IMG/VR virus record: IMGVR_UViG_3300037962_000349
Span: 1-24,249 of that record
Direction: 5' to 3' (one strand)
DNA: 24,249 nucleotides
Origin: a virus
Taxonomy: Duplodnaviria; Caudoviricetes
In this document: positions 886 through 23,738 of the stretch, piece by piece
Layout of the letters: each line of letters begins with the position of its first letter
Position numbering within the stretch: position 1 is the stretch's first letter
Notes under the pieces: model-generated
Databases searched by the model: none
What the model was told of the DNA's origin: nothing
Seen by the model: only the letters and a program-made list of their open reading frames with translations
Made by a program: the position numbers and the translations under genes

Positions 886-1258
886 AAGAGGTGGCTACAG
901 ACAACCTTCTAAACCAGCAGCTGTAGCAACACCACAAGGTGGACAAAGAACAGATGGTGGAGCTGGAAGTAAAACACAACCTCTTAGAAGATTACCTGAT
1001 GCTGACTATGGTGATAATCAACAATTCGTAAATCAACAACAAGGTGCGCCATTACCTGTAGCATCACAAGTAGATGTTAATCCTAATGTTTTTGCACCAA
1101 CAGAAAGACCTAATGAGCCAATAACAGAAGGAGTACCAATAGGTGATGGGTCATCTGGTGTTAAACGAACAGATAACATAGATTTGATGTTACAAGCTAT
1201 GTATGACATAAATCCTTCTCCTATCATTATGGAGTTAATTAACAATAGGAATAGATAA
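872..1258 (+). CDS. Hypothetical virion-associated protein (128 aa, P/Q/G-rich, RGGYRQP...RTDGG motif)
   Basis: GAGG upstream and a TAATG overlap with the next gene. The N-terminal RGGYRxP...RTDGG motif resembles, from recollection only, a post-portal protein of actinobacterial podophages. Confidence 0.7.
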   Translation: MTKNRRGGYRQPSKPAAVATPQGGQRTDGGAGSKTQPLRRLPDADYGDNQQFVNQQQGAPLPVASQVDVNPNVFAPTERPNEPITEGVPIGDGSSGVKRTDNIDLMLQAMYDINPSPIIMELINNRNR

Positions 1259-4200
1259 TGGGCTTCCATCTATTCGATGAAAACGAAGAAAACGATTACT
1301 ACATAGGTAATAAACGTAACGATTTTCAAATAGGTCAATACAATACACAATTTTCTGTATTAGATGGTGTAACAGAAGAATTAGAAAAAGTAACAGAACA
1401 ACATCAATGGCCTGCAGATATATCAGTTCCTTATGTTTTAGCTGGTGGTACAGCAAATAGTCCTATAGCAAACGATATATCTAATAATTTTGCATTAAAC
1501 AAAGTTAAAACAGAATCACAAATCTGGAAAGAAATGCAAGAAAGATACCAATATGAGAACTTAGAAGACAATATGAAGATGAATCTTGGTACATTACTTA
1601 GAGGTGATGCACAAATAGGTGTTTGGTTGTTTGCTGGACTTGATGCATTATTTCAAACATATGGACCGTCAGGTAAATGGTCTGTAATTGCAAGTACTGT
1701 AAATGCTTTAGTACCAGGACAAGCTATGGTTGTTGGTAGGTCACAAGCATATTTAAGAGATTTAAGAGAATACGATAAATTATTACAACAAGGTTTTACA
1801 AAAGAAGCTGCACAAAAGAACTTACAAATAGATTTAAGTATGACTGAAGTAGAAAATATTGGTAAAGATACCAATCTTATTGGTGATATTAGAAAACATA
1901 TTGATATGATACGTGAAGCAAATCAAATGGGTGGAGAACCAGTCTTATGGAATATGATGAGACAAGTTATAAATGGTAAACCTGTTAACTTTGATAGAGC
2001 TACTAAAGTGACTTTAGAGTCTGTAAAAGCAGAAGATACACCTTATTACATAGATTTAATTAATAATTACGGTATGTCACCTGATGAAGCTAGAAAGTTT
2101 ATATATAACAAAATAGGTGAACCATTAAAAGGTTTTGATGATAATGGTCAAATACACTATACATCAGCATTTAAACCTAATCAGATAAATTTTTATGCAG
2201 GTAGAAGAAAATCAAACTTTAACTTTATGGGTTTAAATATGACACAAGATTTGTATAAACCAGAGTTTGAAGATAAAAACTATTTGCTTGAATATTCTCC
2301 TGGCAAAGTATATGCAGGTGAAATATATGAACCAGGTAGTAGAGCTTTTGATTTAATGTCTGGAACTATTGATGCTAGTTATCAATTACTACCAGAGTTA
2401 TTGGCTGGTAAAGGTATAAAAGGTGTACGTAATTTAAGAAAAGGTTTTAGACAAGTTAACCCTGCATTAGAAACAGCACAAACATTAGGTAGAAATAAAA
2501 AAACAGGTAAGTTAGCAAGCATAAACCCTGTAGCTATAAGAAAAGCTATACGAGATGCTGCTGATGGTGAGATTGACCCGTTTACAGGAAAAGGTGATTT
2601 TAGTAAAATTACTAATCCTAAGACAGGTAAATTTAAAGAACTTGATGATATTACACCTACATACAAAGATATTAGAAAAGCTGTTAAAAGAGAAAAAAAG
2701 AATCATACATTTTTTGGTGCAGTACCTAGATTTTTTTCATTAACTAAGAAACAAATACTTGACCAACCAATTATGGATGATTTTTTTAGAGCTGTTGATG
2801 ACACAACTATAGATGATTTAGATGTTATAGCTTTAAATCCTATATTAGGAAAACTACCTGGGCCTGTGCAAAAAAATCTTGCATTAGGAAAAGATGGTAA
2901 TGCAAGAGAAGTGTTTAGTGCAATGATGGATACAGGTTTAGAAATTAGTGAAAATGCAAATATCCGTATGTATAGACTAAGTGAAGACTTTGTAGACGGT
3001 ATGTTACCTGTAAAAGGTTCATTTGTTTTAAATAAAATGTTGCAACAAACTGCACGTAAAGGTACACAATTACAACAAAAAGGTGGTATATACGGTAAAA
3101 CAGTAGGTGGAGCATTGTCTGCTATAGGTAATGAACAAGCTGCATACAGAAGTATAGGTAGTTATTTAGGAGAAGCTTTAAGACCAGCAAGAGTTGCTGT
3201 AGATGAAGGTTTAGGTTATATACCTGGTCTTAGAGGTTTGTCTAGAAGTAGAGCTGCAAAACAACTTACAGGTGGTCCAGCAGTAGTTGATACTATGGAT
3301 GCAGCAGGTAATGTTTTAAAAGCACAAAAAATACTTGATGATATTGGTGGACCTAGATTAGAGTTTGAAAAATTCTTAGGATTTAGTTCTAATTTTAATT
3401 CTTCTTACAATCCATATTATAGAAAACTATTAGGTGTTATACCTGATATGGGAATACCTTTAAACAATGCATCAGTTGGTTATAGACAATTAGTAAGTCA
3501 TTTACAAATTAATGGATATAGTGGTGCAGAAATGTCACAAAGATTAAATAAATTTTTAGAAATAGATTTTGCAAATAAAAATGCTGTAAGAGATTTTGCT
3601 AAAGAACAAGCGGATATAGACGTAGCATTAGTTTTTAAACGTGGTGGAGAAAAAGGTTGGGAATATGTACAACAACATGCAGGCAAAATGTTTGAAGGTT
3701 TAGAAAAACAAAAAATATATGGTGCAGGTAGAAATAATAAAAACTTACCTAACGTTGGTGATGGTTATGAAATGTACAATATGAAAAACCCTGTAACAGG
3801 TGAGATGGTTGACATGCCTGTAATGACAGGTTCTATGTTTTCTGAAATGGCTGACAATATAGCACCACTTATGGATTACAAATTATTAAATAGAGCTATG
3901 TCAGGTATGTTTCAGGTTTATGATGATGCAGACGTATTAGGGATATTTAGTAGAAATGTTAAAAATGTATTTGATTACGGAAAATATCGATATAGAAAAC
4001 TTTTAAATACAGATGATGTATCTTTAGTTAATCCATTTGAAGATGGTGTAATTAGTGTAAAAAGATTAGAAGAAGATTATTTTAACAATTTAGCTAACTT
4101 CTATACAAGAAATGTTTTTAAACCATTAGTTTTGATGAGACTTGCATTTTTTACACGTGTATTTTTAGAAGAACAAGCACGTGTTGCAACAGCTGGGTTA

Positions 4201-7008
4201 GATGCATTTTATAATAATCCTTTTAAAACAATACAGTGGATAGCATCACATGACCCTAATTCAAAAATAGGCAAAGTATTGAATGCACTGCCTTTTAAAA
4301 AAGCAAAAGTTACAGATGGTGAACAATTATTAATGTCATTAGAAGCACAAGAAGCTGCAAGAATTATGAAATTTACAGACCTTATTGGTCCTGGTAGAAG
4401 ACAAAGAAATAAATACACAGAATATATAGCGTATTCTAAAAAAGAAATAGGAACTAAAAGATATGCAAAACATATGTTTTATGAATTAATGTCATTAAGA
4501 AATGACCCTATTGCACAACAAGTTGCAAAGCATGGATATGGTTCTGCTGAACTTACTAAATGGATGAACTCTACTGTAGGTAGACAAGCAAGAATGGATT
4601 TATTTAATGCTGGTGGTACAAGATGGCAACAAATATTAAAAAATAATGATTTTACAGACCAACACTTACAATATTTAGAATCAAGAATAAGAATTAAAAC
4701 TGGTGGCAATGTTACAGTTGGTAAAGATTTAATAAAACAACCTGATGGTAAATATAGATATGAATTACAAACATCTAACTTTGGTGATAAAAGAATACGT
4801 GCAGCTATAGCAGATGGTAAATTAGAAACACTTGATGGAGAAGTACTAGATTTTTATGAAAATCCTTTTAAAACAGTTAAAAGATTTAAACAAAAAAAAG
4901 TTACTGATGCTTTAGAAGAATATTATGGAGAAACAAGATTAGATGGTGGTTTTGTAAAAGTTCCTAGTTTGACAGATGAAGCAGATAATGCACCTAAAGG
5001 TTTATTACAAGCAACAGAAGATATTTTAAACGATGCTCAACAGGCTATATTTGATAGATTAATGACAAAACCTATAAATTATCTAAATAGGTCACCAGTA
5101 TTTAAACAATATAGATGGATGTATATTACAGACAAAATGAAAGAGTTGTCACCTAAATTACAAACACAGTTTATAAAAGAAGCTAAAGGTGCTGGCATCC
5201 CAACATCAGCATTACGAGAACTTACAGGTATGAAAGCTTTACATAAAAATGGAAAGATAGATAATTACAATGCAATTAACGCTGAAAGTAAAGCATTTGG
5301 ATTGTCTATGGTTAAAAATTTACTTTATGACACAAGACAAAAACATGCAGTATCAGATAAGTTATTAAACATATTTCCATTCGCAGAAGTATGGTTTGAA
5401 GTATTCCAAACATGGGGACAGTTACTTGCAGCTAACCCTACAGTATTAAGAAAAGCACATGTTAGTTTACGTGGTGGTGGTGCAGCAGATAGTTATGGTT
5501 CTAGTTCTGACGATGGATTTATTGTACCTGACCCAAGAAATCCAGAAGAAGATATGTTTGTTATGCCTTTTGGTGGTTGGATGACCAATGTTATTTATGG
5601 CGAAGATTCAGAAACTACAATATCTCCTAGAGGATATTTAGCAGGTGTTAACTTATTAGGACAAGGTTTTGTACCAGGTCCTAACCCTGTAGTTGGTTTT
5701 GCTGTAAATAGATTATTACCTGAAAATACAAGTAATCCTTATATAAATGATATATCAAATTATATAAAAGATAGTTTGTTTGGTGACTTTGGTCCACCAG
5801 AAGATGTGTCAGATGTAATAGCTGTAACTCCTGTATATAAAAAATTATTAGCAGCATTAGCATCAAATGATAGTTTTGATACTATAAATGAAAATTCTAA
5901 AGATATACATAAAATGCGTGCAAGTGCAACCATAGATGTTTTTAGATATGGTATGGCATCTGGACAAAACAATAAACTATACAAAGATGGTAAGTTAAGT
6001 GTTTATCTTAATAAATTGTATCCTAATCAATGGACTCCTGAGACTATTACACAAAGACAAATAGACAATGCTTTCTTAGAATATTCTAAAAATGCATCTA
6101 GAAATTTATTTGCAATGGAATTTTTATATCAATTTATTGGTCCTACTGGATTTAAACCAGAATTTTTTATGAAAGATGATGTAGGTAATTTATGGGGTAC
6201 AGCTGTATTGTATGAAGAATTTGTAAGGATACGAGAAAAACATGAAGGTAATGATATAGATACATACAATGAGTTTTTTGAATTGTATGGTATTGAACAT
6301 CCTTATATTTTAAGTCCTAAAACACAATCAGAAATAGGTAAACAACCTACAAGTGTAAGAGTAAAACAATATCAAGCAGAGAATAAAGAAATATTTGACC
6401 AATTAGAACTTAGTGGTTATTACTTAAATACCGATAATCCTAATGAAGAAAAAGATTGGAATGATATTGTAAGAGAAAAAAGTTTATTATCACCTGACCA
6501 ATACAGAAGAGCTGTTAATGACACAATAGGTTTCTTTAGATATAAAACATTTACAACTAATTTAGAAAAATTAGATATTGATTATAAAAAGAAAACACAA
6601 CTTAAAAGAGTATTTAGAGAAGGATTAAAAGAAGCATTACCTGGATTCCAAGCAGATGAATATGGTTTATTAACACCTGTTAGAACAGCAGATGTTTTTA
6701 GTGAAATGAGACGTAAATGGAGAAACATACCTGGTGTTATGGAAACAGAAGCAGGAAAAGGATTTGCAGAAATAATGCCTTTCTGGGAAGAAATGGAAAA
6801 ACTATCACAAGAATATTCACCTACTGCAACAAAAGACTGGTGGTTAAAGTCTGATGATACAAGAGCATTATCTATGAGAATATGGATGTATAATAAAGCA
6901 CAGCAGATTATAGCAGACAATCCAGAGTTTTGGAGTGTCTGGAACGGAGTTATGTTAAAGTTATATAGAGATGACTTTGAAGTATTGGATTATATAGATG
7001 GAGAATAA
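1258..7008 (+). CDS. Large probable internal virion (ejection) protein, 1916 aa
   Basis: 5.75-kb uninterrupted ORF coupled by TAATG at both ends, in the structural module. It has no tape-measure-like periodicity and no catalytic motif I could recognise. Function is inferred from size and context. Confidence 0.6.
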   Translation: MGFHLFDENEENDYYIGNKRNDFQIGQYNTQFSVLDGVTEELEKVTEQHQWPADISVPYVLAGGTANSPIANDISNNFALNKVKTESQIWKEMQERYQYENLEDNMKMNLGTLLRGDAQIGVWLFAGLDALFQTYGPSGKWSVIASTVNALVPGQAMVVGRSQAYLRDLREYDKLLQQGFTKEAAQKNLQIDLSMTEVENIGKDTNLIGDIRKHIDMIREANQMGGEPVLWNMMRQVINGKPVNFDRATKVTLESVKAEDTPYYIDLINNYGMSPDEARKFIYNKIGEPLKGFDDNGQIHYTSAFKPNQINFYAGRRKSNFNFMGLNMTQDLYKPEFEDKNYLLEYSPGKVYAGEIYEPGSRAFDLMSGTIDASYQLLPELLAGKGIKGVRNLRKGFRQVNPALETAQTLGRNKKTGKLASINPVAIRKAIRDAADGEIDPFTGKGDFSKITNPKTGKFKELDDITPTYKDIRKAVKREKKNHTFFGAVPRFFSLTKKQILDQPIMDDFFRAVDDTTIDDLDVIALNPILGKLPGPVQKNLALGKDGNAREVFSAMMDTGLEISENANIRMYRLSEDFVDGMLPVKGSFVLNKMLQQTARKGTQLQQKGGIYGKTVGGALSAIGNEQAAYRSIGSYLGEALRPARVAVDEGLGYIPGLRGLSRSRAAKQLTGGPAVVDTMDAAGNVLKAQKILDDIGGPRLEFEKFLGFSSNFNSSYNPYYRKLLGVIPDMGIPLNNASVGYRQLVSHLQINGYSGAEMSQRLNKFLEIDFANKNAVRDFAKEQADIDVALVFKRGGEKGWEYVQQHAGKMFEGLEKQKIYGAGRNNKNLPNVGDGYEMYNMKNPVTGEMVDMPVMTGSMFSEMADNIAPLMDYKLLNRAMSGMFQVYDDADVLGIFSRNVKNVFDYGKYRYRKLLNTDDVSLVNPFEDGVISVKRLEEDYFNNLANFYTRNVFKPLVLMRLAFFTRVFLEEQARVATAGLDAFYNNPFKTIQWIASHDPNSKIGKVLNALPFKKAKVTDGEQLLMSLEAQEAARIMKFTDLIGPGRRQRNKYTEYIAYSKKEIGTKRYAKHMFYELMSLRNDPIAQQVAKHGYGSAELTKWMNSTVGRQARMDLFNAGGTRWQQILKNNDFTDQHLQYLESRIRIKTGGNVTVGKDLIKQPDGKYRYELQTSNFGDKRIRAAIADGKLETLDGEVLDFYENPFKTVKRFKQKKVTDALEEYYGETRLDGGFVKVPSLTDEADNAPKGLLQATEDILNDAQQAIFDRLMTKPINYLNRSPVFKQYRWMYITDKMKELSPKLQTQFIKEAKGAGIPTSALRELTGMKALHKNGKIDNYNAINAESKAFGLSMVKNLLYDTRQKHAVSDKLLNIFPFAEVWFEVFQTWGQLLAANPTVLRKAHVSLRGGGAADSYGSSSDDGFIVPDPRNPEEDMFVMPFGGWMTNVIYGEDSETTISPRGYLAGVNLLGQGFVPGPNPVVGFAVNRLLPENTSNPYINDISNYIKDSLFGDFGPPEDVSDVIAVTPVYKKLLAALASNDSFDTINENSKDIHKMRASATIDVFRYGMASGQNNKLYKDGKLSVYLNKLYPNQWTPETITQRQIDNAFLEYSKNASRNLFAMEFLYQFIGPTGFKPEFFMKDDVGNLWGTAVLYEEFVRIREKHEGNDIDTYNEFFELYGIEHPYILSPKTQSEIGKQPTSVRVKQYQAENKEIFDQLELSGYYLNTDNPNEEKDWNDIVREKSLLSPDQYRRAVNDTIGFFRYKTFTTNLEKLDIDYKKKTQLKRVFREGLKEALPGFQADEYGLLTPVRTADVFSEMRRKWRNIPGVMETEAGKGFAEIMPFWEEMEKLSQEYSPTATKDWWLKSDDTRALSMRIWMYNKAQQIIADNPEFWSVWNGVMLKLYRDDFEVLDYIDGE

Positions 7009-9211: not shown

Positions 9212-10452
9212 GTTATAAAGTTAAATCAGACCAATCAGCACAGTTAATGTATATCAAAGATACTAATGAGTACAAAATAGTTGTAGATGTAGGAGATGTT
9301 ATTTATGTATTTGATACACCTGCAAACTCTACAATATATCAATTAACAGATTTACAAGAAGTAGCTGGCCAAAGTGAACAACAAGTAAGAGCATCAGCAG
9401 GTATTTATGTAACAGATAATGATACGTTTATGTCAGGATTTTTTAATGATGATAGGTTAGTAAGTGTAGCTATAGATGTAAATCAAATAACACCTGCTAT
9501 TGCAGATGATGCACAAGATATACTTAAAACATTTTTTGATGCACAAGAATCTTTAAATAAAACATATGGTGCAAGAAATGCATTGTGGAAAGATGAAGAA
9601 TACTTAGCACAAATAGCAATACTTACACAACAACTTGATGGTGATATGGATGCTGCAGTTACATATTTTGCTAACACAGAAGAATACGGAAATATATTAA
9701 AAAGACTTCCTAATTCACAAGGTGGTATAGGTATATCACAAGATGAGATAGATGCAGAAGAAATGATTAAGACTGATTTTGTTGGATTTCAAAATCTTAA
9801 AAAAGAAAACATTGCATATATAAATGGATTAGTTGCTAAATCAGGTGGAGACATACCACCTACTGGTGTAGAGTACCTAGCTGATTTAATGACTAAAGGT
9901 ATTATGTCGCAACAAGAAGTTATAAGACAAGTTAGTGGTGCAACAGATGATTACTCACCATATAAGGATACTTTAAATGCAGGGTTTTTAGATGCTATTG
10001 CAGGTAAAGGTACTAAAACAAACGCTGGTATGGATGGGGTACAAGACTTATTAAATAAATATTTACCTAGTTATTTACACGATACATTTGATATAGCAGC
10101 AGAAGCAGGCAAAATTAGAAACGACCCTAACTATCAAAGTGTATTTGAAGATACATTAAAAGACCAAAGGTTTGCTTTATATCCTATGTACGATAAAAAT
10201 GTAAATTGGAATTTTATAGTAGCTTCTAAAAAACAAGTAGCTAAGAATGTACTTGGTGTAGAACTCAAAGAAAATGACCCTGCATTAGATTCTATTATTA
10301 GAATGAATGATACATCTAAAGAACAAGAATATTTAAGAAATATAGGATTGGAAAGAGATTATCAAAAAACTAAGAATGATTTACAAAAAGCAATGATGGG
10401 TGCATTTGGTAGTGGTGTTGTATCAAGCACAGCATATGTAGAGGGAAGATAA
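9208..10452 (+). CDS. Hypothetical protein, probable internal virion protein (414 aa)
   Basis: ATGA overlap upstream, TAATG downstream; long ORF within the coupled block. Confidence 0.55.
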   Translation: MSYKVKSDQSAQLMYIKDTNEYKIVVDVGDVIYVFDTPANSTIYQLTDLQEVAGQSEQQVRASAGIYVTDNDTFMSGFFNDDRLVSVAIDVNQITPAIADDAQDILKTFFDAQESLNKTYGARNALWKDEEYLAQIAILTQQLDGDMDAAVTYFANTEEYGNILKRLPNSQGGIGISQDEIDAEEMIKTDFVGFQNLKKENIAYINGLVAKSGGDIPPTGVEYLADLMTKGIMSQQEVIRQVSGATDDYSPYKDTLNAGFLDAIAGKGTKTNAGMDGVQDLLNKYLPSYLHDTFDIAAEAGKIRNDPNYQSVFEDTLKDQRFALYPMYDKNVNWNFIVASKKQVAKNVLGVELKENDPALDSIIRMNDTSKEQEYLRNIGLERDYQKTKNDLQKAMMGAFGSGVVSSTAYVEGR

Positions 10453-11402
10453 TGGTAAGAGTATATAGAAAAGATTTAGATACTTTTTATGAAGTATCTG
10501 AAGAAAGAGCTATAGAGTTAGAACAAGTAGGTTATTCTAGAGACCCTTCTGTAGCAGGTACAGATTTCGGTGGTAGTGACATGTCTGCAGTCCAAGAAAC
10601 ACAAAGACAAGAAACAGAAGGTTACCAAATAGGACAAGCAATGTTTGCATTTTTACCAGAGTCCGTACTAAATGCATTTGCAAAAGAATGGGTTAAATCA
10701 GGTGACCCAGATATAGCAATAGGTGCAACTAGAAATACATCTGAATGGAAAGAAAGTTTTGGTTATCTTAAAAGAGCTGATGGTAGTTTAATCATGGATG
10801 AAGTCAGTGCTTTATCTACTATTGCAACTTACAAACAAACATTAGGTGAAGTAGGAATACAGGATTTTACTGATTTTGAGGATGATTTTCAACAATTAGT
10901 TACATCTGAAGTATCAGGTGCAGAGTTTCAACAACGTATAGATATTGTATATTCTGGCATTCAAGACCAAATACCTGAAGTAGAAAGATTATTTAGAGAA
11001 CAATACAATATTAATGTTGACCAACCAACTATATTTGCTGCATTAATTAATCCTAAAATACAAGATAAAGTGTTAGCAGGAGATATAGCAACTATACAAC
11101 TACAAGCAGAGGCTACATCTAGAGGATTTAGTAGAACATTTGCACAGTTTGAAGCATTAAGAAAACAAGGTTTAACACAAGCATCAGCTAGACAGTTATA
11201 TAGTCAAGCAGGTGCTGCAATGCAATCTGCAGCAAATGTAGGAAGAAATTTACAATTAGAAACATTAGAAAAAGCAGCATTAGGTGATACAGCAGCTAAT
11301 AGAAGGTTGCAAAGAATACAAGCAGAAATACAATCACAAGGTGGATTGACATTAGGCGCTGCTAAAAAAGGTGACGAAGTTACTGGACTTATAGAGAATT
11401 AG
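10452..11402 (+). CDS. Hypothetical protein, probable internal virion protein (316 aa; A/Q-rich helical C-terminus)
   Basis: GAGGG RBS and TAATG overlap; last gene of the coupled block. Confidence 0.55.
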   Translation: MVRVYRKDLDTFYEVSEERAIELEQVGYSRDPSVAGTDFGGSDMSAVQETQRQETEGYQIGQAMFAFLPESVLNAFAKEWVKSGDPDIAIGATRNTSEWKESFGYLKRADGSLIMDEVSALSTIATYKQTLGEVGIQDFTDFEDDFQQLVTSEVSGAEFQQRIDIVYSGIQDQIPEVERLFREQYNINVDQPTIFAALINPKIQDKVLAGDIATIQLQAEATSRGFSRTFAQFEALRKQGLTQASARQLYSQAGAAMQSAANVGRNLQLETLEKAALGDTAANRRLQRIQAEIQSQGGLTLGAAKKGDEVTGLIEN

Positions 11403-11410
11403 TGTATAAT
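11403..11410 (+). promoter_or_regulatory. Putative -10 promoter element (TG-TATAAT) for the leader/scaffold/capsid transcript
   Basis: Perfect TATAAT at 11405-11410 at the very start of the largest intergenic gap. No clear -35 element at canonical spacing. Confidence 0.55.
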
Positions 11411-11416
11411 AAGTTT

Positions 11417-11605
11417 ATGCGTTGCGTGGTCCGCTTAAAGACCTGCAATCAGCTTTCAAAGCCTACGTAGAAAGCTTGTAATAAAATCGTAGAGTAATGG
11501 GTTTGTAGCTTATAGCTACCAGAGATACAAACCAAGTGGTAAGGTAGCACCGCGACAAGATTCCTATGGTCTTGTCTGACAGGTAAACACATAGAGGAGG
11601 TACTA
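11417..11605 (+). ncRNA. Putative structured RNA / 5' leader with five helices and tertiary pairings
   Basis: Stems read directly from the sequence: 11422-11431/11440-11448; AGCTTTC/GAAAGCT (11451-57/11470-76); GGTTTGTA/TACAAACC (11500-07/11526-33); GTGGT/ACCGC (11536-40/11549-53); GACAAGA/TCTTGTC (11554-60/11570-76). Visibly more GC-rich than the flanks, with no long + strand ORF. Confidence 0.65.
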
Positions 11606-12079
11606 ATGGAAAATGAATTTGATGCACCAGCAGAAAATGGTGTAAAACAAATGAGAGAAACTATTGATAGAAAAGATGAATCTATCAAAAAATTAGAGGC
11701 AGAGTTAGCTTCTTATAAGGAAAAAGAAATTGATTCGGTCTTTGGTCAGTTAGGTTTATCTACTGACAAAGGTTTCGGTAAAGCGTTAAAACAAGTGTAT
11801 GATGGCCCTGTAAATGCAGAAGCTATTTCACAGTTTGCTAAAGATGAGTATGGTTTTGAACCTGCTACTGAGGTAAAGGAAGAACCACAACCTGAACAAC
11901 AGCAAGTAGTTCAAGATGATGCTAGGTCTAGAGTGGCTGCACTTGATGCAAATTCACAGTCTGATGTACCATTAGGTGTTGAAGAGCAACTAGAGCAAAT
12001 CATTGCAAAGGGTAGTACAAAAGATTCTATCCGTGCAAGACTATACGCACAAGAGGCTCTTAAAGAACAACCTAAATAA
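11606..12079 (+). CDS. Probable capsid scaffolding protein (157 aa)
   Basis: Strong RBS GAGGAGGT (11594-11601), acidic, N-terminal coiled coil (KQMRETIDRKDESIKKLEAELASYKEKE), immediately upstream of the capsid gene. Confidence 0.7.
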   Translation: MENEFDAPAENGVKQMRETIDRKDESIKKLEAELASYKEKEIDSVFGQLGLSTDKGFGKALKQVYDGPVNAEAISQFAKDEYGFEPATEVKEEPQPEQQQVVQDDARSRVAALDANSQSDVPLGVEEQLEQIIAKGSTKDSIRARLYAQEALKEQPK

Positions 12080-12120
12080 TTACTTTAAGTACAAGCAACA
12101 ATTAAATACGGAGGTATAAA

Positions 12121-13242
12121 ATGGCAGCAATTTCGCTGACAAATGACTCGATATATTCTCAGAAAATTAATAACTTTTCTGGTGAATTATTTCGTGTTGG
12201 TGGTCAAAGAACACCATTTCTCTCTGCAACAGGTGGCTTGAACGGTGGTAAAGTCTTACAATCAACTTTCTGGCAAATCCAGGCAGCTGATAATGCAGTC
12301 GTTTCTTCTGAACCTACTAAAGGTCAAGAAGGCGCTCAACCTACAGAATACTTAGGTAGAGACAGGGTTGCATACACATCTGTTACTCAGGTTTTCCATA
12401 AAGGTGTAAAGATGACTTACACTGCAATGGCAACATATCAACATCAAAATCCATTTGATTTGAGCGCTAATATTATTAACGCTTCAGATGGTGATGGAAC
12501 AACAACAGCTGGTGATAAATTAGCATTAGCTGGTGGTAATCCAATCATTGATGAATTTGCAGAGCAAATGTCTTTGGCTCTCGAAAAAGTAGCAAGGGAA
12601 GTAGAATGGTTCGCATTTAACGGAACATTCGCTGACGGTGCAAACACTACACCAGGTAGTGGTACACGTGAAATGCGTGGACTATTAGAGTGGACTGGGT
12701 TAAATGCAAATGCAAATAACTCAACAGCTCCTACTGGCACAGGTGGTAACATCCACTATTGTGACTCTGGAGGAGACGACTCTACTGCAGCTCGTGACTT
12801 ATCATGGGATGCAATAGCAGAAGCAATGAAACGTCTATATGATGCTTCAGCGCCAATGATTAATCCTGTATTAGTAGTTACACCTAAGCAATTACTAGCT
12901 CTTAACAAAGAATTAGTTGGAGGTACTATTGGTTTAGCCGCAGCTATTCTTCCAAGAGATAGAAACGTTGCAGGTATCGACATTGATACTGTTGTAACAC
13001 CGTTTGGTTCTATCGGTATGATGGTCATTGACCCTAATATCATGCCATCTGAATCAGCGTTCATTCTTGACTTTGCTTTCATACAACCAGTTTTTACAAA
13101 TATCCCAGGATATGGAACTGTGTTCGTAAGAGACATTGACCAAGACGACTTTGCACGAGTTGGAAAAGCAATATACATGGAGATGGGATACGAATTTGGT
13201 CCTCCTTCATATCACTTGCAATTCTCAAAAGTTAAAAGTTAA
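12121..13242 (+). CDS. Major capsid protein (HK97 fold; SU10/DUF5309-like), 373 aa
   Basis: RBS GGAGGT. Motifs TPFLS, EG...R...TQVFHKGVKMTYTA, EKVAREVEWFAFNG, REMRGL and VVTPFGSIGM match my recollection of SU10-type MCPs. Visible enrichment of C-ending codons (TTC, AAC, ATC, GAC) suggests high expression. Followed by a hairpin. Confidence 0.85.
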   Translation: MAAISLTNDSIYSQKINNFSGELFRVGGQRTPFLSATGGLNGGKVLQSTFWQIQAADNAVVSSEPTKGQEGAQPTEYLGRDRVAYTSVTQVFHKGVKMTYTAMATYQHQNPFDLSANIINASDGDGTTTAGDKLALAGGNPIIDEFAEQMSLALEKVAREVEWFAFNGTFADGANTTPGSGTREMRGLLEWTGLNANANNSTAPTGTGGNIHYCDSGGDDSTAARDLSWDAIAEAMKRLYDASAPMINPVLVVTPKQLLALNKELVGGTIGLAAAILPRDRNVAGIDIDTVVTPFGSIGMMVIDPNIMPSESAFILDFAFIQPVFTNIPGYGTVFVRDIDQDDFARVGKAIYMEMGYEFGPPSYHLQFSKVKS

Positions 13243-13249
13243 AATTAAA

Positions 13250-13289
13250 CAGAACTTTGGGAGTAGCTCCACCTGCTCCCTTTGTTCTG
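13250..13289 (+). terminator. Hairpin after the capsid gene; probable leaky intrinsic terminator or mRNA-stabilising stem
   Basis: GGGAGTAG (13259-66) pairs with CTGCTCCC (13273-80) with one G-U pair, followed by an interrupted U-tract TTTGTTCT. An outer stem CAGAAC/GTTCTG (13250-55/13284-89) encloses it. Confidence 0.7.
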
Positions 13290-17785: not shown

Positions 17786-18412
17786 ATGTCATTTGGATAT
17801 TTGGGAGATACTTCTACCAAGATAAAACAACAAATAAAAAATCAAGGTGTAATATCTGTTTCCGAGGCTTATGAATTAGAAAAAAAGGGACATCTTGGTG
17901 GTAGTTTAGAGCTTATTGAAGAACAAACTTATTCAAGTGCAGTTTCAGCAGTAGATTTTACTTCTATAAAAGGTGCTAAATATAATGTTCACTTTTTAAC
18001 TTGGGCAAATGTTGATTTTGCTTCAGAAGAACTACCTGCATTGAGATTTTTTGAAAGTGGAGTATTAGAAACTGCAAGTGTTTATCAATATGCTTTGCAA
18101 TCTTATGGTACAGCAGGTGGTTTCGCTGAAAACAAGAGTACAGGGGAAACTTATTGTTTGTTAGGTAACTTTACAAATGATGTTACTAATGGATATGCCT
18201 ACATTTATAATGCAAATGACAGTTCAAAATATACTTTTGTTACAAGTCAATCAATGGACGATGACCAAGATGCTAGTCCACAAAGTATTGGTTTATTTGG
18301 TGGAAGTGTTTTACCACAAACAAGTACAGTAGATGGAATTAGATTTACAGGAAGTGCTAGTACTAATTTTTCTTCATTTACTGTAAAACTCTATGGAGTA
18401 AAACAGATATGA
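17786..18412 (+). CDS. Putative receptor-binding domain paralog A1 (208 aa, with ~38-aa N-terminal extension)
   Basis: AGGAG RBS. Shared family motifs LELI, YNVHF, YQYA, YIYN, DGIRF, KLYGV. Confidence 0.7.
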   Translation: MSFGYLGDTSTKIKQQIKNQGVISVSEAYELEKKGHLGGSLELIEEQTYSSAVSAVDFTSIKGAKYNVHFLTWANVDFASEELPALRFFESGVLETASVYQYALQSYGTAGGFAENKSTGETYCLLGNFTNDVTNGYAYIYNANDSSKYTFVTSQSMDDDQDASPQSIGLFGGSVLPQTSTVDGIRFTGSASTNFSSFTVKLYGVKQI

Positions 18413-18924
18413 GTAACCTTAGATTATTAAATGAAACTACTATAACTTCAAATGTATCTTCTGTGAATGTAACAGATGTTTTTTCAGCAGATTTTGATAT
18501 TTACAAAATAGTTTTTAATGGAATTACAACAACAGACGCTACACCTTTACATTGTAAACTTATAAATTCAAGTGGAAGTGTTATAAGTTCTTCAGAATAT
18601 GATTATGCTTTTTTACTTATGAAAGGTGAAGCATCTTTTACAGAAAGCAACCAAACTAATGGTACAAATTGGAATAATTTTTTTGGTAATCCAGATGAAG
18701 CGCCAGAGCTAGTAAGTGGGGTTGCATATATATTCAATCCTTTTTCAAGTTCATCTTACACTTTCGCTATCAATCAAGTGGCAGTTGAAACAAGAAGATG
18801 GTATAAAGGTGTTCAAGTTTTTACAGAAACAACTTCAGTAACAGGATTTCAAGCATTTGAACTTAATTCACGACCAATTACTAGTGGTGTGTTTAGAACT
18901 TATGGATTGCGAGTTGATACATAA
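18409..18924 (+). CDS. Putative receptor-binding domain paralog B1 (171 aa)
   Basis: ATGA overlap. Motifs FDIYKI, YDYA, YIFNP, RTYGL. Confidence 0.7.
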   Translation: MSNLRLLNETTITSNVSSVNVTDVFSADFDIYKIVFNGITTTDATPLHCKLINSSGSVISSSEYDYAFLLMKGEASFTESNQTNGTNWNNFFGNPDEAPELVSGVAYIFNPFSSSSYTFAINQVAVETRRWYKGVQVFTETTSVTGFQAFELNSRPITSGVFRTYGLRVDT

Positions 18925-19427
18925 TGGGATTAGTACAAGTAGCAACAAATACAGTAACAAGTGCAGTAGCTAGTGTAACTTTGACAGGCATAGATAGTGA
19001 TGATGTCTATATGGTTGCTATGAGTGGTATGAAACCTGCATCTGATGCTCAATTATATGCAAGGGTAACAACAAGTGGAGTAGCTGATAGTGATAGTGAG
19101 TATGATTATGCAAACAAATATTTAAAAGCAGATACAAGTTTTGGTACTGACAGTTCAACAAATAATAATAGGTGGACACCAACTTCAACAATGGAAAATG
19201 CTTATAATGGTTACAGTATGATTATGTATCTTTATAATTTTAACAATTCTTCTGAATATAGTTTTATGACATCAGAAGAAGCACATATACAGGCTGGAAC
19301 AACAACAGTAAGAGGTTTACAAGGTGGTGGTGTTCATACAGTTGCTGAAGCAAATGATGGTATTAGTTTTCTTATGGGTAGTGGAAATATTGAAGCAGGA
19401 ACATTTACATTGTATAAGGTAGTGTAG
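18924..19427 (+). CDS. Putative receptor-binding domain paralog C1 (167 aa)
   Basis: TAATG overlap. Motifs DVYMV, YDYA, YLYN, DGISF, GTFTLYKV. Confidence 0.7.
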   Translation: MGLVQVATNTVTSAVASVTLTGIDSDDVYMVAMSGMKPASDAQLYARVTTSGVADSDSEYDYANKYLKADTSFGTDSSTNNNRWTPTSTMENAYNGYSMIMYLYNFNNSSEYSFMTSEEAHIQAGTTTVRGLQGGGVHTVAEANDGISFLMGSGNIEAGTFTLYKVV

Positions 19428-19431
19428 AGAT

Positions 19432-20070
19432 ATGAGTTATATACCAAAAGATGCAGTAACACAAGCCTTCAGAAGTAACAAAGGTGTGCTTACACCTAAT
19501 CAAATTATTGAATTAGATAATGAAAATAAATTTACTAAGTATGGACAACTAGAACTTTTGTTGACAAATGAATCTATAAGTAGTGCATCAACAGTGGATT
19601 TTTTAGCACTTGATGATTATGGAAATTTTGATGTTTTTTTTGTAACCTTTAATGACTTAAGTATTGCTAATGATAATAAAAGAATAGGCTTAGAACTTTT
19701 AAAAAATGGTGTTGCAAGTGGTACTGCTTATCATTCAGCAGGTAGAGTATTAACATCTGCTGCTAGTTATACCAATGGAAGTGGCACTTCTCTTCCTGGA
19801 TTAAGGATAACTGACAATATAGGGAGTGCTACAAATGAAAATACAAGTGGATATATATATATTTATAATGCTTTAAATAGTGCAAGGTGTACAACTATTA
19901 CTTATCACGCTACATTTATGACAAATGGTGGTGTGCCTGGTGTCGAATATGGTATTGGTGTTCACCCTACAGCAAGGTTTGATAATGGTTTAAGATTTCA
20001 CCCTGACATAAATGGTAGTTCTACTTTTACAGGTGGTGCTTTTACTTTATATGGAATAAGGAGTTTTTAA
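19432..20070 (+). CDS. Putative receptor-binding domain paralog A2 (212 aa, with ~38-aa N-terminal extension)
   Basis: Motifs LELL, FDVFF, YHSA, YIYN, NGLRF, FTLYGI. Its N-terminal extension resembles that of A1. Confidence 0.7.
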   Translation: MSYIPKDAVTQAFRSNKGVLTPNQIIELDNENKFTKYGQLELLLTNESISSASTVDFLALDDYGNFDVFFVTFNDLSIANDNKRIGLELLKNGVASGTAYHSAGRVLTSAASYTNGSGTSLPGLRITDNIGSATNENTSGYIYIYNALNSARCTTITYHATFMTNGGVPGVEYGIGVHPTARFDNGLRFHPDINGSSTFTGGAFTLYGIRSF

Positions 20071-20594
20071 TGGCTACAAATTTAGAGTTTATTACAAGTT
20101 TTGATATTACTGCTAGTCAAGAAGTTACAGATATAGATAATGTTTTTACAAGTAAATATAATATTTACCAAATTACTTTTGCAGATTTTTCCACAGTTGG
20201 CTCTTCTGATGAAACTATTAGTTTAAGAATAATTGATGATAGTGGAACACTTGATTCAGATAATGTTTATGATTATGCAGTTAATGAGCTAAGGTCTGAT
20301 ACAAGTTATGCTGATAATAAAAATGAAAATTTTGAAAGAATAGATAGGTTGATGAAAATAGATGAAAGTCCTGATGGTATGAGTTGTAATTTATATGTGT
20401 ATAATCCACAAATTAGTAGTGCATTTACATTTTTTACATGGCAAGGTGCAGGTAGATTTTCAGGTCAAAGTAGAGGTTTTAAAGGAATAGCAGCTCATAA
20501 GGTAGCAGAGGCAGTTAGAGGTATAAGAATATTTGGTACTGTTGGTAGTAGACCTTATGACACAGGAAAAATAGCAGTATATGGAGTTACATAA
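20070..20594 (+). CDS. Putative receptor-binding domain paralog B2 (174 aa)
   Basis: AGGAG RBS and TAATG overlap. Motifs YNIYQI, YDYA, YVYNP, RGIRI, AVYGV. Confidence 0.7.
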   Translation: MATNLEFITSFDITASQEVTDIDNVFTSKYNIYQITFADFSTVGSSDETISLRIIDDSGTLDSDNVYDYAVNELRSDTSYADNKNENFERIDRLMKIDESPDGMSCNLYVYNPQISSAFTFFTWQGAGRFSGQSRGFKGIAAHKVAEAVRGIRIFGTVGSRPYDTGKIAVYGVT

Positions 20595-21151
20595 TGTCAA
20601 GTAGTTTAGTTTTATTAGATGAATTTACTATATCTAGTGCATTAGCAAATGTCACTATAGGTGGTGGTAGTAGTGGTAGTAGTGGTTTAAATTATTCTAT
20701 TGATGGTACTTACAATGTTTATAAATTAACAGTAAATAATTTACAAGTTTCAGCAGATGATGTTCCAATAATGAGAGTTACTAAATCAGGCACTGCACAA
20801 AGTGATGCTGCTTATGATTCAGCAGGTACTTATTTAAAATCAGATGCTAGTTTTACTTCTTTTGGTTCACCAGACAATAACAAAATAGATTACATGACAA
20901 CTATTGAAAGTTCTGTAAGTGGTGGTAATGGAAATGGAATTTATTATTTATTTAATTTTCCTAATACAGGAGAGTTTAGTTTTGTAACAATAGAAGAAGC
21001 ACACTATCAACAAAATGATAATGCAGTAAGAGGTATCCAGGCAGGATTTGCACATACTGTTGCAAGTGCAAGTGATGGTGTATTTCTAGCATTAGACGCA
21101 GGAAATAATATGACAGCAGGAACATTTAAACTTTATGGACTCAACAAGTAA
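20594..21151 (+). CDS. Putative receptor-binding domain paralog C2 (185 aa)
   Basis: GGAG RBS and TAATG overlap. Motifs YNVYKL, YDSA, YLFN, DGVFL, GTFKLYGL. Confidence 0.7.
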   Translation: MSSSLVLLDEFTISSALANVTIGGGSSGSSGLNYSIDGTYNVYKLTVNNLQVSADDVPIMRVTKSGTAQSDAAYDSAGTYLKSDASFTSFGSPDNNKIDYMTTIESSVSGGNGNGIYYLFNFPNTGEFSFVTIEEAHYQQNDNAVRGIQAGFAHTVASASDGVFLALDAGNNMTAGTFKLYGLNK

Positions 21152-21818: not shown

Positions 21819-23738
21819 GTGTTGCGGTCAAGGCTGTTGCAATGGTGGTTAATAACATGTTTAGTTATGCTGCCAATATCAGCATTAGCTAACGAAGAAG
21901 AACAAGAGAATACTACTACTACTACGATACCAGGAGAAGTAGAAGAAATAGAAACATTTGATGGTCCAGAAGAAACAACTACGACCACAATACCTGAAGA
22001 GACAGAAACTACTACAACTACTACTACAACTATTCCTGAATGGGAACAATCTACAGATATAGAATTGCCTGAAGATGAGTTAGATAGTCAAGGTAATGAA
22101 GTAGAAAATAACATACAGATAGATGACAAGCATAGTAATGGTAACTGGTCTTGTTGTGGTATGACTGACTTTCACATGAACTTACACTACTTTCAACATG
22201 GAAACGATAGTAATGATTACACATTTACATTACCTGAAACTACAACAGTAGATGAAGAAGAACTAGAGATAGATATATACGAAGTAGGTTTTAGGATTGG
22301 TGCATTAAATAATGATGGAACAGTTACATACATACATACTGATGAAACCTCACAAGTAAATGTTCTTGAAGGTCAAGACAATACAGATATACAAAATATG
22401 TTTGAAGATGTTGTTTACAATATTTATGACACTCTTGAAACCTTTATAGAAAGTTTTACAATAACAATAAATGATTGGTCGTTGCTTGATGATATATCAT
22501 TTAAATATATACAGCCAACAACTACTACTACAACTACTACCACATTACCTCCTCCACCAGAGCCTGAGCCTGAAGTTGCACCACCCGAACCTGAAACATT
22601 TGTTGTTGTTCTTGATGATGGTACTGAGGCTGAGTATGAACAGCATGAAATAGATGATGGTACTGTAGAGAGAGATAACGAACGTAAAAAGAATTACGAA
22701 ATATATGGTGTAGAATTAACTGACGAACAAATTGCAAGAGGAGATTTAGAACAATATGATATCGAAATCATTGATGATGAAAATATGGTTGAAGACGGAG
22801 AAGAGCTTTCTGATGATGTTGATATACCTGATGTTAATGAAGATAGATATGAAGATGAACCCGAATATCAAGAAGATGAAAAAGAAGATATTGATGACAA
22901 GGTTCGTGAATTTAATGACACAGTCCTCGAAGTTGAGGAATACTTAGATACTTTTGAAGAAATAGAAATTGTTATAATAGAAAATATTGAAGACATAATT
23001 ATAGAGGATATTATTGATGAGTTACACGAAGAGGATATACGAAGAGATGACAATGAAGAACCTAAAGTTCAACCATTGGAGGATATTACCGAGGAGATTG
23101 AGGAGATATTTGTTGAAGAGGTGGTTGAAGAAGAGGTTGAAGAATTAGAAGAAATCATAGAAATAGAGATAGAAGAAGATTTAACTGATGAAGAAATTGA
23201 AGAAACCATTGAAGTATATGTGCAAAAACTCGACACAGAAGAAGTTGTAGAAGTATTAGAAGAAGTTAATGATATAGGTGTACAAAACCTAGAACAAGCT
23301 ACAGAAGAAGTGCAAGAGATAGTTCAGGCTGTTGTAGAAGAGGCTATAGAAGAGATAGAAGAACTTACAGAAGAACAGGTTGAAGTAGTTGCAGAGGTGC
23401 TACAAGTACAAACAGAAGACGTAGAAATTATTGCAGAAGCTGTAAAAGAAGATGAAGTTGTTGCAGAAGCTGTAGAAGAATATGTAGAAAGAGCTGTACA
23501 AAATGCTGATGTAGAAAACTATACACTTGCTGATGTTGTTACAGAGGTACAATACGAAAACTTTTTAGAAAATCCTATAGAAACATTTGTAGATTTAGAT
23601 TTTGAAGGTATAACAATAGATAATATAGGTGATGACATGACGTCTGACCAGAAAGAAAAAGCACAAGAGGTGGTAGTCCCAGTTATTTTGACTAGAATAG
23701 CTACTATGGCCGCATTTGTGTTTAGGAAAACAATATGA
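21819..23738 (+). CDS. Exported, extremely acidic, Thr-tract-containing protein with probable C-terminal membrane anchor (639 aa)
   Basis: RBS AGGAGGT (21807-13) and GTG start. Sec-like signal peptide MLRSRLLQWWLITCLVMLPISALA|NEE; poly-Thr and Pro linkers; E/D-rich body; hydrophobic end VVVPVILTRIATMAAFVF followed by RK. Confidence 0.75.
   Translation: MLRSRLLQWWLITCLVMLPISALANEEEQENTTTTTIPGEVEEIETFDGPEETTTTTIPEETETTTTTTTTIPEWEQSTDIELPEDELDSQGNEVENNIQIDDKHSNGNWSCCGMTDFHMNLHYFQHGNDSNDYTFTLPETTTVDEEELEIDIYEVGFRIGALNNDGTVTYIHTDETSQVNVLEGQDNTDIQNMFEDVVYNIYDTLETFIESFTITINDWSLLDDISFKYIQPTTTTTTTTTLPPPPEPEPEVAPPEPETFVVVLDDGTEAEYEQHEIDDGTVERDNERKKNYEIYGVELTDEQIARGDLEQYDIEIIDDENMVEDGEELSDDVDIPDVNEDRYEDEPEYQEDEKEDIDDKVREFNDTVLEVEEYLDTFEEIEIVIIENIEDIIIEDIIDELHEEDIRRDDNEEPKVQPLEDITEEIEEIFVEEVVEEEVEELEEIIEIEIEEDLTDEEIEETIEVYVQKLDTEEVVEVLEEVNDIGVQNLEQATEEVQEIVQAVVEEAIEEIEELTEEQVEVVAEVLQVQTEDVEIIAEAVKEDEVVAEAVEEYVERAVQNADVENYTLADVVTEVQYENFLENPIETFVDLDFEGITIDNIGDDMTSDQKEKAQEVVVPVILTRIATMAAFVFRKTI

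What the first reader, a model, noticed from the sequence alone, without database searches (positions are those of the whole stretch)
11417..11605. ~190-nt multi-helix RNA with a pseudoknot and complementary loops upstream of the scaffold-capsid operon
Seen: the largest non-coding gap in an otherwise overlap-packed window starts right after a TATAAT and is tiled by five stems (P1 11422-11448, P2 11451-11476, P3 11500-11533, P4 11536-11553, P5 11554-11576). The P2 loop CTACG (11463-67) is complementary to CGTAG (11488-92) across an A-rich linker TGTAATAAAAT, which is H-type pseudoknot geometry. The P3 loop GCTACC (11515-20) is exactly complementary to the P4 loop GGTAGC (11543-48), suggesting a kissing-loop pair. 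That pairing competes with an internal hairpin GTAGCT/AGCTAC (11505-10/11514-19). I do not recognise the RNA as a known riboswitch, ribozyme, tRNA or tmRNA. Inference: an undescribed cis-regulatory or structural RNA. Established precedent for loop-loop pairing in a phage RNA of this size is phi29 pRNA, offered as an analogy and not as homology.
Basis: partly seen in the sequence, partly recalled or inferred. Interest (0 to 1): 0.78.

Follow-up and report, generated by a model that had tools for sequence, protein, structure and literature searches.

The report
Four-pseudoknot leader of phage head genes
The 190 bases in front of this uncultured marine phage's head-building genes carry the pairing pattern of four RNA pseudoknots in a row, kept in relatives by matched mutations and absent from the Rfam library, and the element likely sets how much head-scaffold protein is made.

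Summary
The element is real and richer than reported. It is a conserved ~190-nt 5' leader of the scaffold-capsid genes, built from four consecutive H-type pseudoknots.

All four pseudoknot helices show compensatory changes (62-81 relatives; 20 of 50 pairs change on both sides). An RNA-first search found the leader in 188 loci: 182 precede the scaffold gene and 6 are cut by contig ends.

Two of the knots share a capped module (a C before and N-G after each stem). It also recurs in strongly diverged leaders of distant clades. Metatranscriptome contigs begin at 11417-11434, a weak hint for the predicted start site.

The competing hairpin is not conserved and P4 is at most 3 bp. The pRNA analogy is not supported. 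Rfam has no match.

Best guess (0.4, untested): a protein-bound translational operator giving scaffold feedback. The close rival is a constitutive mRNA stabiliser or enhancer. The scan noted similar tandem-pseudoknot leaders before on other DNA.

The parts
10452..11402 (+). Upstream gene (316 aa, phrog_8424, unknown function); its last codons overlap the promoter's -35 region
11384..11389 (+). -35-like hexamer (4 of 6 matches), 15 nt before the -10 box
   Evidence: best hexamer at spacer 15 in 47 of 58 distinct clade A promoters; function inferred
11405..11410 (+). -10 box TATAAT of the predicted late promoter
   Evidence: present in all 73 loci examined (selected on it, none failed); 7-10 nt before the first paired base in 81 of 81 leaders
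11417..11417 (+). Predicted transcription start
   Evidence: 7 nt after the -10 box; RNA contigs of runs X3 and X17 (one study) end exactly here; weak hint
11419..11446 (+).
   Evidence: 81 of 81 paired; middle pair C-G in 76, U-A in 5, at least 4 changes on the scaffold tree; outer pair G-C to A-U in L216 (read by eye)
11450..11494 (+). PK-A: stem 11451-57/11470-76, pseudoknot helix 11463-67/11488-92; first copy of the capped module
   Evidence: A-U/G-C swap, at least 6 changes on the tree
11500..11548 (+). PK-B: stem 11500-07/11526-33 with likely extension 11509-10/11521-22; pseudoknot helix 11515-20/11543-48
   Evidence: three of six pseudoknot pairs covary across the two alignments
11536..11553 (+). 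Possible 3-bp P4 (11536-38/11551-53), unproven; C11553 is also the cap of PK-C
   Evidence: two invariant G-C pairs, middle pair 54 of 62, no compensatory change
11553..11596 (+). PK-C: stem 11554-60/11570-76, pseudoknot helix 11564-68/11590-94; second copy of the capped module; its final G is the first G of the SD
   Evidence: all 12 pairs 100% paired in 62 sequences, 8 with changes on both sides
11596..11601 (+). Shine-Dalgarno GGAGGT
   Evidence: invariant in 62 of 62
11606..12079 (+). Putative head scaffold (157 aa, phrog_7813 unknown function); identity inferred from position before the capsid gene and an all-helical model with a 40-residue N-terminal helix
   Evidence: no fold match in PDB, no Pfam match at cut-off
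12121..13242 (+). Major capsid protein (SU10_MCP, phrog_1328)
13259..13288 (+). Intrinsic-terminator-like hairpin with T tract after the capsid gene

Best explanation
The element is a conserved chain of four pseudoknot pairings that fills the predicted 5' leader of the scaffold-capsid mRNA, and it likely acts as a protein-bound translational operator through which free scaffold protein would damp its own synthesis.

Shown: four helical pseudoknot pairings kept by compensatory change; fixed linkers of 2-5 nt between knots; strict placement between a -10 box and the scaffold start; two copies of a sequence-capped module, the second ending at -12 from the AUG and touching the SD.

Inferred: the 5' knot, starting 1-4 nt after the predicted start site, would shield the 5' end from RNase E/G-type decay. 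The two capped modules would be binding sites for a head protein. When scaffold is not tied up in proheads it would bind there and hinder 30S loading at the adjacent SD, keeping the scaffold-to-capsid ratio in range.

Not shown: folding in solution, any binding partner, any regulatory effect.
For: Structure: 50 pairs, 97.4% of cells paired, 20 pairs changed on both sides, 0 of 500 column shuffles as high, slid controls 31-44% paired. Independent changes on a scaffold tree: 4 (PK0), 6 (PK-A), 3 and 1 (PK-B), 3, 3 and 4 (PK-C; one truncated row adds one to each).

Linkage: of 223 RNA-first pattern hits, 188 are leaders; 182 have the scaffold gene downstream, 6 are cut by contig ends, none lies in another context. 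The model matches 1 of 65 genomes of the putative host order, and that match is on the phage-like contig.

Module: 2 hits in the whole window, both in the leader. Two per leader in 96 of 96 clade A loci; one in 49 of 70 clade B, 3 of 7 clade C and 2 of 6 high-GC loci; two in L299. One hit in about 1.81 Mb outside leaders. Invariant caps whose neighbouring stems change freely fit recognition by a factor (inference).

Precedent: T4 gp32 binds a leader pseudoknot to repress its own translation (PMC3014915, passages). P22 scaffold autoregulation exists as titled papers (reference lists only; mechanism recalled). The scaffold-to-capsid ratio affects T7 assembly (PMC3185693, passages).
Against: There is no direct evidence that the scaffold binds RNA. 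The protein is acidic overall, has no known RNA-binding family and no fold match (model pLDDT 68.7, pTM 0.34).

No conserved alternative fold or SD-sequestering helix was found. At most one SD base could pair in PK-C, and in clades B and C the last knot ends further off (mostly -17 to -22). Unlike the gene 32 operator, there is no long unstructured A/U tract for cooperative fill-in.

The invariant caps could be purely structural (bulged end pairs or triples). Unchecked scan notes report tandem knots directly before capsid genes too, which would point to a scaffold-independent role.
Confidence: 0.4

Rival explanations
1. Constitutive stabiliser and translation enhancer: the rigid knot chain leaves almost no single-stranded A/U-rich RNA between the 5' end and the SD, protecting the abundant head mRNA from RNase E/G and keeping the SD open, with no regulator protein.
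For: Structure begins 7-10 nt after the -10 box in 81 of 81 leaders and tiles the leader with 2-5-nt linkers. RNase E/G is present in 20 of 21 genomes of the putative host order. Three consecutive pseudoknots in the TMV 3' UTR promote translation and replication (PMC4683447, passages). RNA contigs in 5 of 6 RNA runs reach to within 17 nt of the predicted 5' end.
Against: A single 5' hairpin would normally suffice (own knowledge), yet an overlap-packed genome keeps 190 nt. It does not by itself explain the sequence-invariant caps shared across diverged clades. An xrRNA-type 5'-3' block is disfavoured: RNase J was not found in 0 of 31 and 0 of 21 genomes searched, if the host guess is right.
Confidence: 0.3
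2. Nascent-RNA antiterminator (HK022 put-like, recalled): the knots fold right after the promoter, bind RNA polymerase and let it pass the terminator after the capsid gene into the tail genes.
For: The element is promoter-proximal, and a terminator-like site lies at 13259-13280 with tail-type genes beyond it. Some RNA contigs lie beyond the terminator.
Against: The last knot is tied to the SD distance (-11 to -13 in 80 of 81), which antitermination does not require. No put-like Rfam match.
Confidence: 0.08
3. Discrete structural RNA (pRNA-like), processed from the leader and multimerising through loop-loop pairs for packaging or capsid assembly.
For: Similar size, link to head genes, many invariant loop bases. 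Covariation cannot tell intra- from intermolecular pairs.
Against: All four complementary pairs have intramolecular H-type geometry. No terminator lies after the element. Single RNA contigs bridge leader and ORFs (11417-12680, 11431-12627, 11417-12201), though a contig across genes does not prove one transcript.
Confidence: 0.07
4. Small-molecule riboswitch with tandem pseudoknot aptamers, PK-C acting as the expression platform on the SD.
For: H-type pseudoknots next to an SD are typical of several riboswitch classes (own knowledge). Invariant unpaired bases are present.
Against: No Rfam match even at E up to 10 inside the element. The downstream gene is structural rather than metabolic. No conserved alternative fold was found, and the SD is barely overlapped.
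Confidence: 0.05

Closest known systems
Phage T4/T2 gene 32 translational operator (PMC3014915, passages)
   Same: H-type pseudoknot in a phage 5' leader upstream of the RBS; the proposed mode of action (the gene's own product binds and represses)
   Different: One knot 67 nt upstream followed by an unstructured A/U tract, and an ssDNA-binding protein. Here there are four knots, no long tract, and a head gene.
GP20-a (RF02991) and GP20-b (RF03003) motifs and six further GP20-upstream candidates (PMC10690425, section 2.5 read)
   Same: Conserved structured RNAs directly upstream of a phage gene; GP20 as a scaffold is recalled, the paper calls it unknown function
   Different: No Rfam match here; the downstream protein has no GP20 Pfam hit; those motifs are 72-107 nt and come from gut, soil and wastewater phages
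TMV upstream pseudoknot domain (PMC4683447, passages)
   Same: Consecutive small pseudoknots in an untranslated region that serve translation and bind a protein (eEF1A)
   Different: 3' UTR of a plant RNA virus with three knots; no homology implied
P22 scaffolding-protein autoregulation (titles seen in reference lists only; mechanism recalled)
   Same: Post-transcriptional feedback of a scaffold gene is the proposed logic
   Different: No multi-pseudoknot leader is known to me for P22; the original paper was not available
phi29 pRNA (recalled)
   Same: Size, phage head context, complementary loops
   Different: pRNA is a separate transcript pairing between molecules; here a leader with local H-type pairs and no 3' terminator

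Membership tests
Any Rfam 15 family (riboswitches, ribozymes, tRNA, tmRNA, GP20-a/b) | Covariance-model match at gathering score | tested here: not met
   0 matches in the window; no match inside the element at E up to 10 (one chance hit touches base 11417); 0 in 20 related loci
phi29 pRNA-like packaging RNA | Discrete transcript with its own 3' end | tested here: inconclusive
   No terminator-like site; contigs bridge into the ORF, but contigs cannot show RNA ends
phi29 pRNA-like packaging RNA | Loop-loop pairing that is intermolecular | not testable with these tools
   Geometry allows intramolecular H-type pairing for all four helices; needs native gels
HDV-like / theta ribozymes | Nested double pseudoknot with P3-L3 inside P1 and P1.1 | tested here: not met
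   The covariation-supported topology is four simple knots in series; no Rfam match; family topology recalled
T4 gene 32-type autogenous operator | Leader pseudoknot upstream of the RBS | tested here: met
   PK-C ends 11-13 nt before the AUG in 80 of 81 leaders
T4 gene 32-type autogenous operator | Unstructured A/U tract between knot and RBS | tested here: not met
   1 nt between PK-C and the SD
T4 gene 32-type autogenous operator | Repression by binding of the encoded protein | not testable with these tools
   No RNA-protein tool or assay available
GP20-upstream motifs | Downstream gene of the Phage GP20 family | tested here: not met
   No such Pfam hit for the window's scaffold or 4 distant homologues
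xrRNA (exoribonuclease-resistant RNA) | A host 5'-3' exoribonuclease to block | tested here: inconclusive
   RNase J not found in 31 and 21 genomes of the putative host order; genomes are incomplete and the host is inferred
Fremin 2023 viral candidate structured RNAs | Presence among the 8,495 IMG/VR candidates | tested here: inconclusive
   The alignment archives could not be searched; the tables seen hold no sequences

The most novel reading that the evidence does not exclude
A widespread, uncatalogued class of phage head-gene leaders built from a repeated, sequence-capped pseudoknot module that the scaffold protein reads as an RNA operator. It would be an ancient RNA-based counter of head-protein stoichiometry, shared by phage clades whose scaffolds are only about 20-35% identical.
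Probability: 0.3. Interest if true: 0.85.

Novelty: new variant of a known kind. Interest (0 to 1): 0.63.

Why it matters
How tailed phages balance scaffold and capsid synthesis is known mainly from old P22 genetics, with no RNA structure attached as far as I found. This leader gives a compact, covariation-defined RNA and a candidate protein partner, so the question becomes testable with a reporter and a gel shift.

A natural chain of four H-type knots, with a repeated capped module that survives near-total sequence turnover, is also a new RNA fold target. It could mark late promoters and scaffold genes in uncultured actinophages.

Tried and rejected
Nested MFE against shuffles: not significant; uninformative for pseudoknots. 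RNAalifold picked the pseudoknot helices in place of P2/P3 and added invariant long-range pairs without covariation; not adopted.

In one search the second helix was a misregistered P4 of mine and was ignored. A 17-codon ORF starting at 11417: its ATG is kept in only 18 of 81 leaders; rejected.

blastn of the leader against annotated phages: no match. A loose 5' pattern gave 120 loci that are nearly all chance: 1 of the 99 tested matched the model. They served as negatives, where the module descriptor gave 17 hits in 422 kb, almost all in sequence of 57-70% GC, so it is not specific at high GC.

The broad scaffold alignment was too divergent for a locus search; narrower ones were used. Leader identity 0.82 against 0.63 at fourfold sites is noisy (range 0-1) and is given little weight. 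In the 81-leader MAFFT alignment the outer P2 pairs are misregistered for 16 rows; the per-sequence descriptor finds the stem in all.

The rigid chain test found 3 knots in 7 of 18 representative leaders, 2 in 7 and 1 in 4; only the 3-knot cases clearly beat shuffles. Lack of RNA cover upstream of 11417 is a weak hint only. Fold search: no match. Literature searches showed no description of this element in the listings returned; subscription journals are not covered, and the supplement of PMC5737381 was unreadable.

Full report
Setting. The window is a 32-33% GC virus record with all main genes on the + strand. The ORF at 12121-13242 is a major capsid protein (phrog_1328, SU10_MCP). Of the 24 annotated-phage records that match it, 22 are named for actinobacterial genera, at 24-30% identity. 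An 81% identical capsid gene lies on a contig of a genome titled Actinomycetota. That genome's order has 65 genomes of 0.6-1.1 Mb. With the 32.5% GC reported for Ca. Actinomarinales (PMC7771536, passages) this suggests that host group; this is my inference, and a binned phage contig is weak evidence. The 157-aa ORF at 11606 is called a scaffold from its position and an all-helical model; no database names it.

Observation. The nested MFE is unremarkable (z -0.49). Rfam has no match.

Relatives settle the structure. The scaffold query returned 74 loci; all 73 with upstream DNA carry the element, giving 62 distinct sequences. On a 50-pair model, 97.4% of cells pair and 20 pairs change on both sides; none of 500 shuffles reaches this and slid controls pair 31-44%. 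PK-A's pseudoknot helix swaps A-U for G-C in 16 sequences. PK-B's has G-C to C-G (2) and C-G to U-A (9).

A fourth knot, 11419-21 with 11432-34, was invariant in that set. It covaries once 13 loci of a sister clade are added: 81 of 81 distinct leaders pair, C-G in 76 and U-A in 5 (L084 and L216 were dropped by the extraction pattern). On a scaffold tree the pair states change at least 4 times in PK0, 6 in PK-A, 3 and 1 in PK-B, and 3, 3 and 4 in PK-C, where one truncated row adds one to each. A generic descriptor finds three non-overlapping knots (PK0 is too short for it) against 0 of 1000 shuffles and 1 of 504 other windows.

A repeated module. PK-A and PK-C share a pattern: C, stem 1, short loop, C, stem 2, 0-2 nt, stem 1 partner, N-G, loop of 7-16 nt, stem 2 partner, N-G. 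I derived the descriptor from these alignments, so its hits in clade A are partly by construction. It hits twice in the whole window, both in the leader, and twice in each of 96 of 96 clade A loci. It also hits leaders of distant scaffold clades (found through): 49 of 70 in clade B, 3 of 7 in clade C, 2 of 6 high-GC loci, and twice in L299. There was one hit in about 1.81 Mb outside leaders. It is not specific in GC-rich DNA (17 hits in 422 kb).

Distant clades. Clade B has its own three-knot leader: 32 of 46 extracted leaders were aligned; 96.4% of cells pair and 20 of 38 pairs change on both sides, although its second and third pseudoknot helices vary little. The clade A model finds L299 at 36.5 bits and only marginal scores (13-16 bits) at the right place in six other distant loci, out of 82 searched. 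By eye the 5' knot looks homologous across clades. Rfam has nothing in 20 representative loci.

Context and expression. Of the 223, 188 are leaders: 182 have the scaffold downstream, 6 are cut by contig ends, none lies elsewhere; 35 are chance hits (viral and metagenome rows overlap). Structure starts 7-10 nt after the -10 box, linkers are 2-5 nt, and PK-C ends 11-13 nt before the AUG in 80 of 81. Eighteen metatranscriptome runs hold part of the region; I laid 6. Their leftmost contigs start at 11417 (X3, X17, one study), 11431, 11433, 11434 and 11513, with no cover upstream, while two runs of unrecorded type do cover upstream. Contigs show neither strand nor true ends, so this is a weak hint for a late promoter and a leader joined to the head genes.

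Mechanism. Shown: the pairings, the placement and the repeated module. Inferred: function. I favour a translational operator bound by free scaffold (0.4). The reasons are that the element is tied to this one gene, its last module abuts the SD, its caps are invariant while the stems turn over, and precedent exists. T4 gp32 binds a leader pseudoknot (PMC3014915, passages). P22 scaffold autoregulation is in print (titles only; the paper was not held). Against this: no evidence of RNA binding by the scaffold, no conserved switch, and a larger knot-to-SD distance in other clades.

Rivals. A constitutive stabiliser or enhancer is nearly as likely (0.3). RNase E/G is in 20 of 21 putative host genomes. 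RNase J was not found in 31 and 21 genomes, which disfavours an xrRNA-style block of the kind that halts RNase J1 in vitro (PMC5760640, passages). Antitermination, a pRNA-like species and a riboswitch are each under 0.1.

Comparison and novelty. The element is not a member of any Rfam family. It works, at best guess, like the gene 32 operator but fails that operator's A/U-tract feature. It sits where GP20-a/b-type motifs sit (PMC10690425, section 2.5) but matches none in Rfam. Architecturally it recalls the TMV upstream pseudoknot domain (PMC4683447, passages). Eight literature searches showed no description. Passages of PMC5737381 and of the 2026 Minerva preprint do not mention it. The Fremin 2023 alignments could not be searched, so an automatic listing there is not excluded.

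Earlier scan notes. Look-ups by sequence and place returned nothing. A word search returned notes on other genomes describing three to six tandem pseudoknots before scaffold or capsid genes, one of them a four-knot marine leader of about 184 nt. These are unchecked, and I could not tell whether that one is this family. Verdict: real, uncatalogued, a new variant of phage cis-acting leader RNAs with an unusual architecture and untested function.

Noticed in passing
window 11384-11410; L227-L298: The -35-like hexamer sits 15 nt from the -10 box in 47 of 58 clade A promoters. A perfect TTGACA lies at spacer 15 in 20 of 44 and at 16 in 4 of 44 clade B promoters. It often overlaps the upstream gene's last Gly-Leu-Thr/Ile codons, so coding may explain part of it, but the short spacer also occurs in non-coding cases.
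   Followed up: partly
window 11606-12079 and P0135-P0197: Across 51 distant homologues of this acidic protein the best-kept stretches are basic: an N-terminal K-x-L-R-like motif and a central G-x-G-K-A motif in a predicted helix-turn-helix region. These are candidate RNA- or coat-binding sites.
   Followed up: no
window 1258-7008: A 1,916-aa ORF with no PHROG match, followed by three more unmatched ORFs and one of unknown function, probably internal virion proteins.
   Followed up: no
window 17786-21151: A run of about six similar 167-212-aa ORFs with related N-terminal sequence, apparently a paralogue array in the tail region.
   Followed up: no
window 21819-23738: A 639-aa extremely acidic, Thr/Glu-rich ORF with an N-terminal signal-like stretch and a hydrophobic C-terminus; no PHROG match.
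   Followed up: no
G001 order (handles G001-G065): These small genomes appear to lack RNase J while keeping RNase E/G, unlike Corynebacterium in the control set.
   Followed up: partly
L223 versus L222: L223's leader looks like L222's with one knot deleted, suggesting modular loss of units (read by eye).
   Followed up: no
window 13055-13145: Many diverged RNA contigs pile up on this capsid-gene stretch, showing that related phages are also present in the RNA libraries.
   Followed up: no
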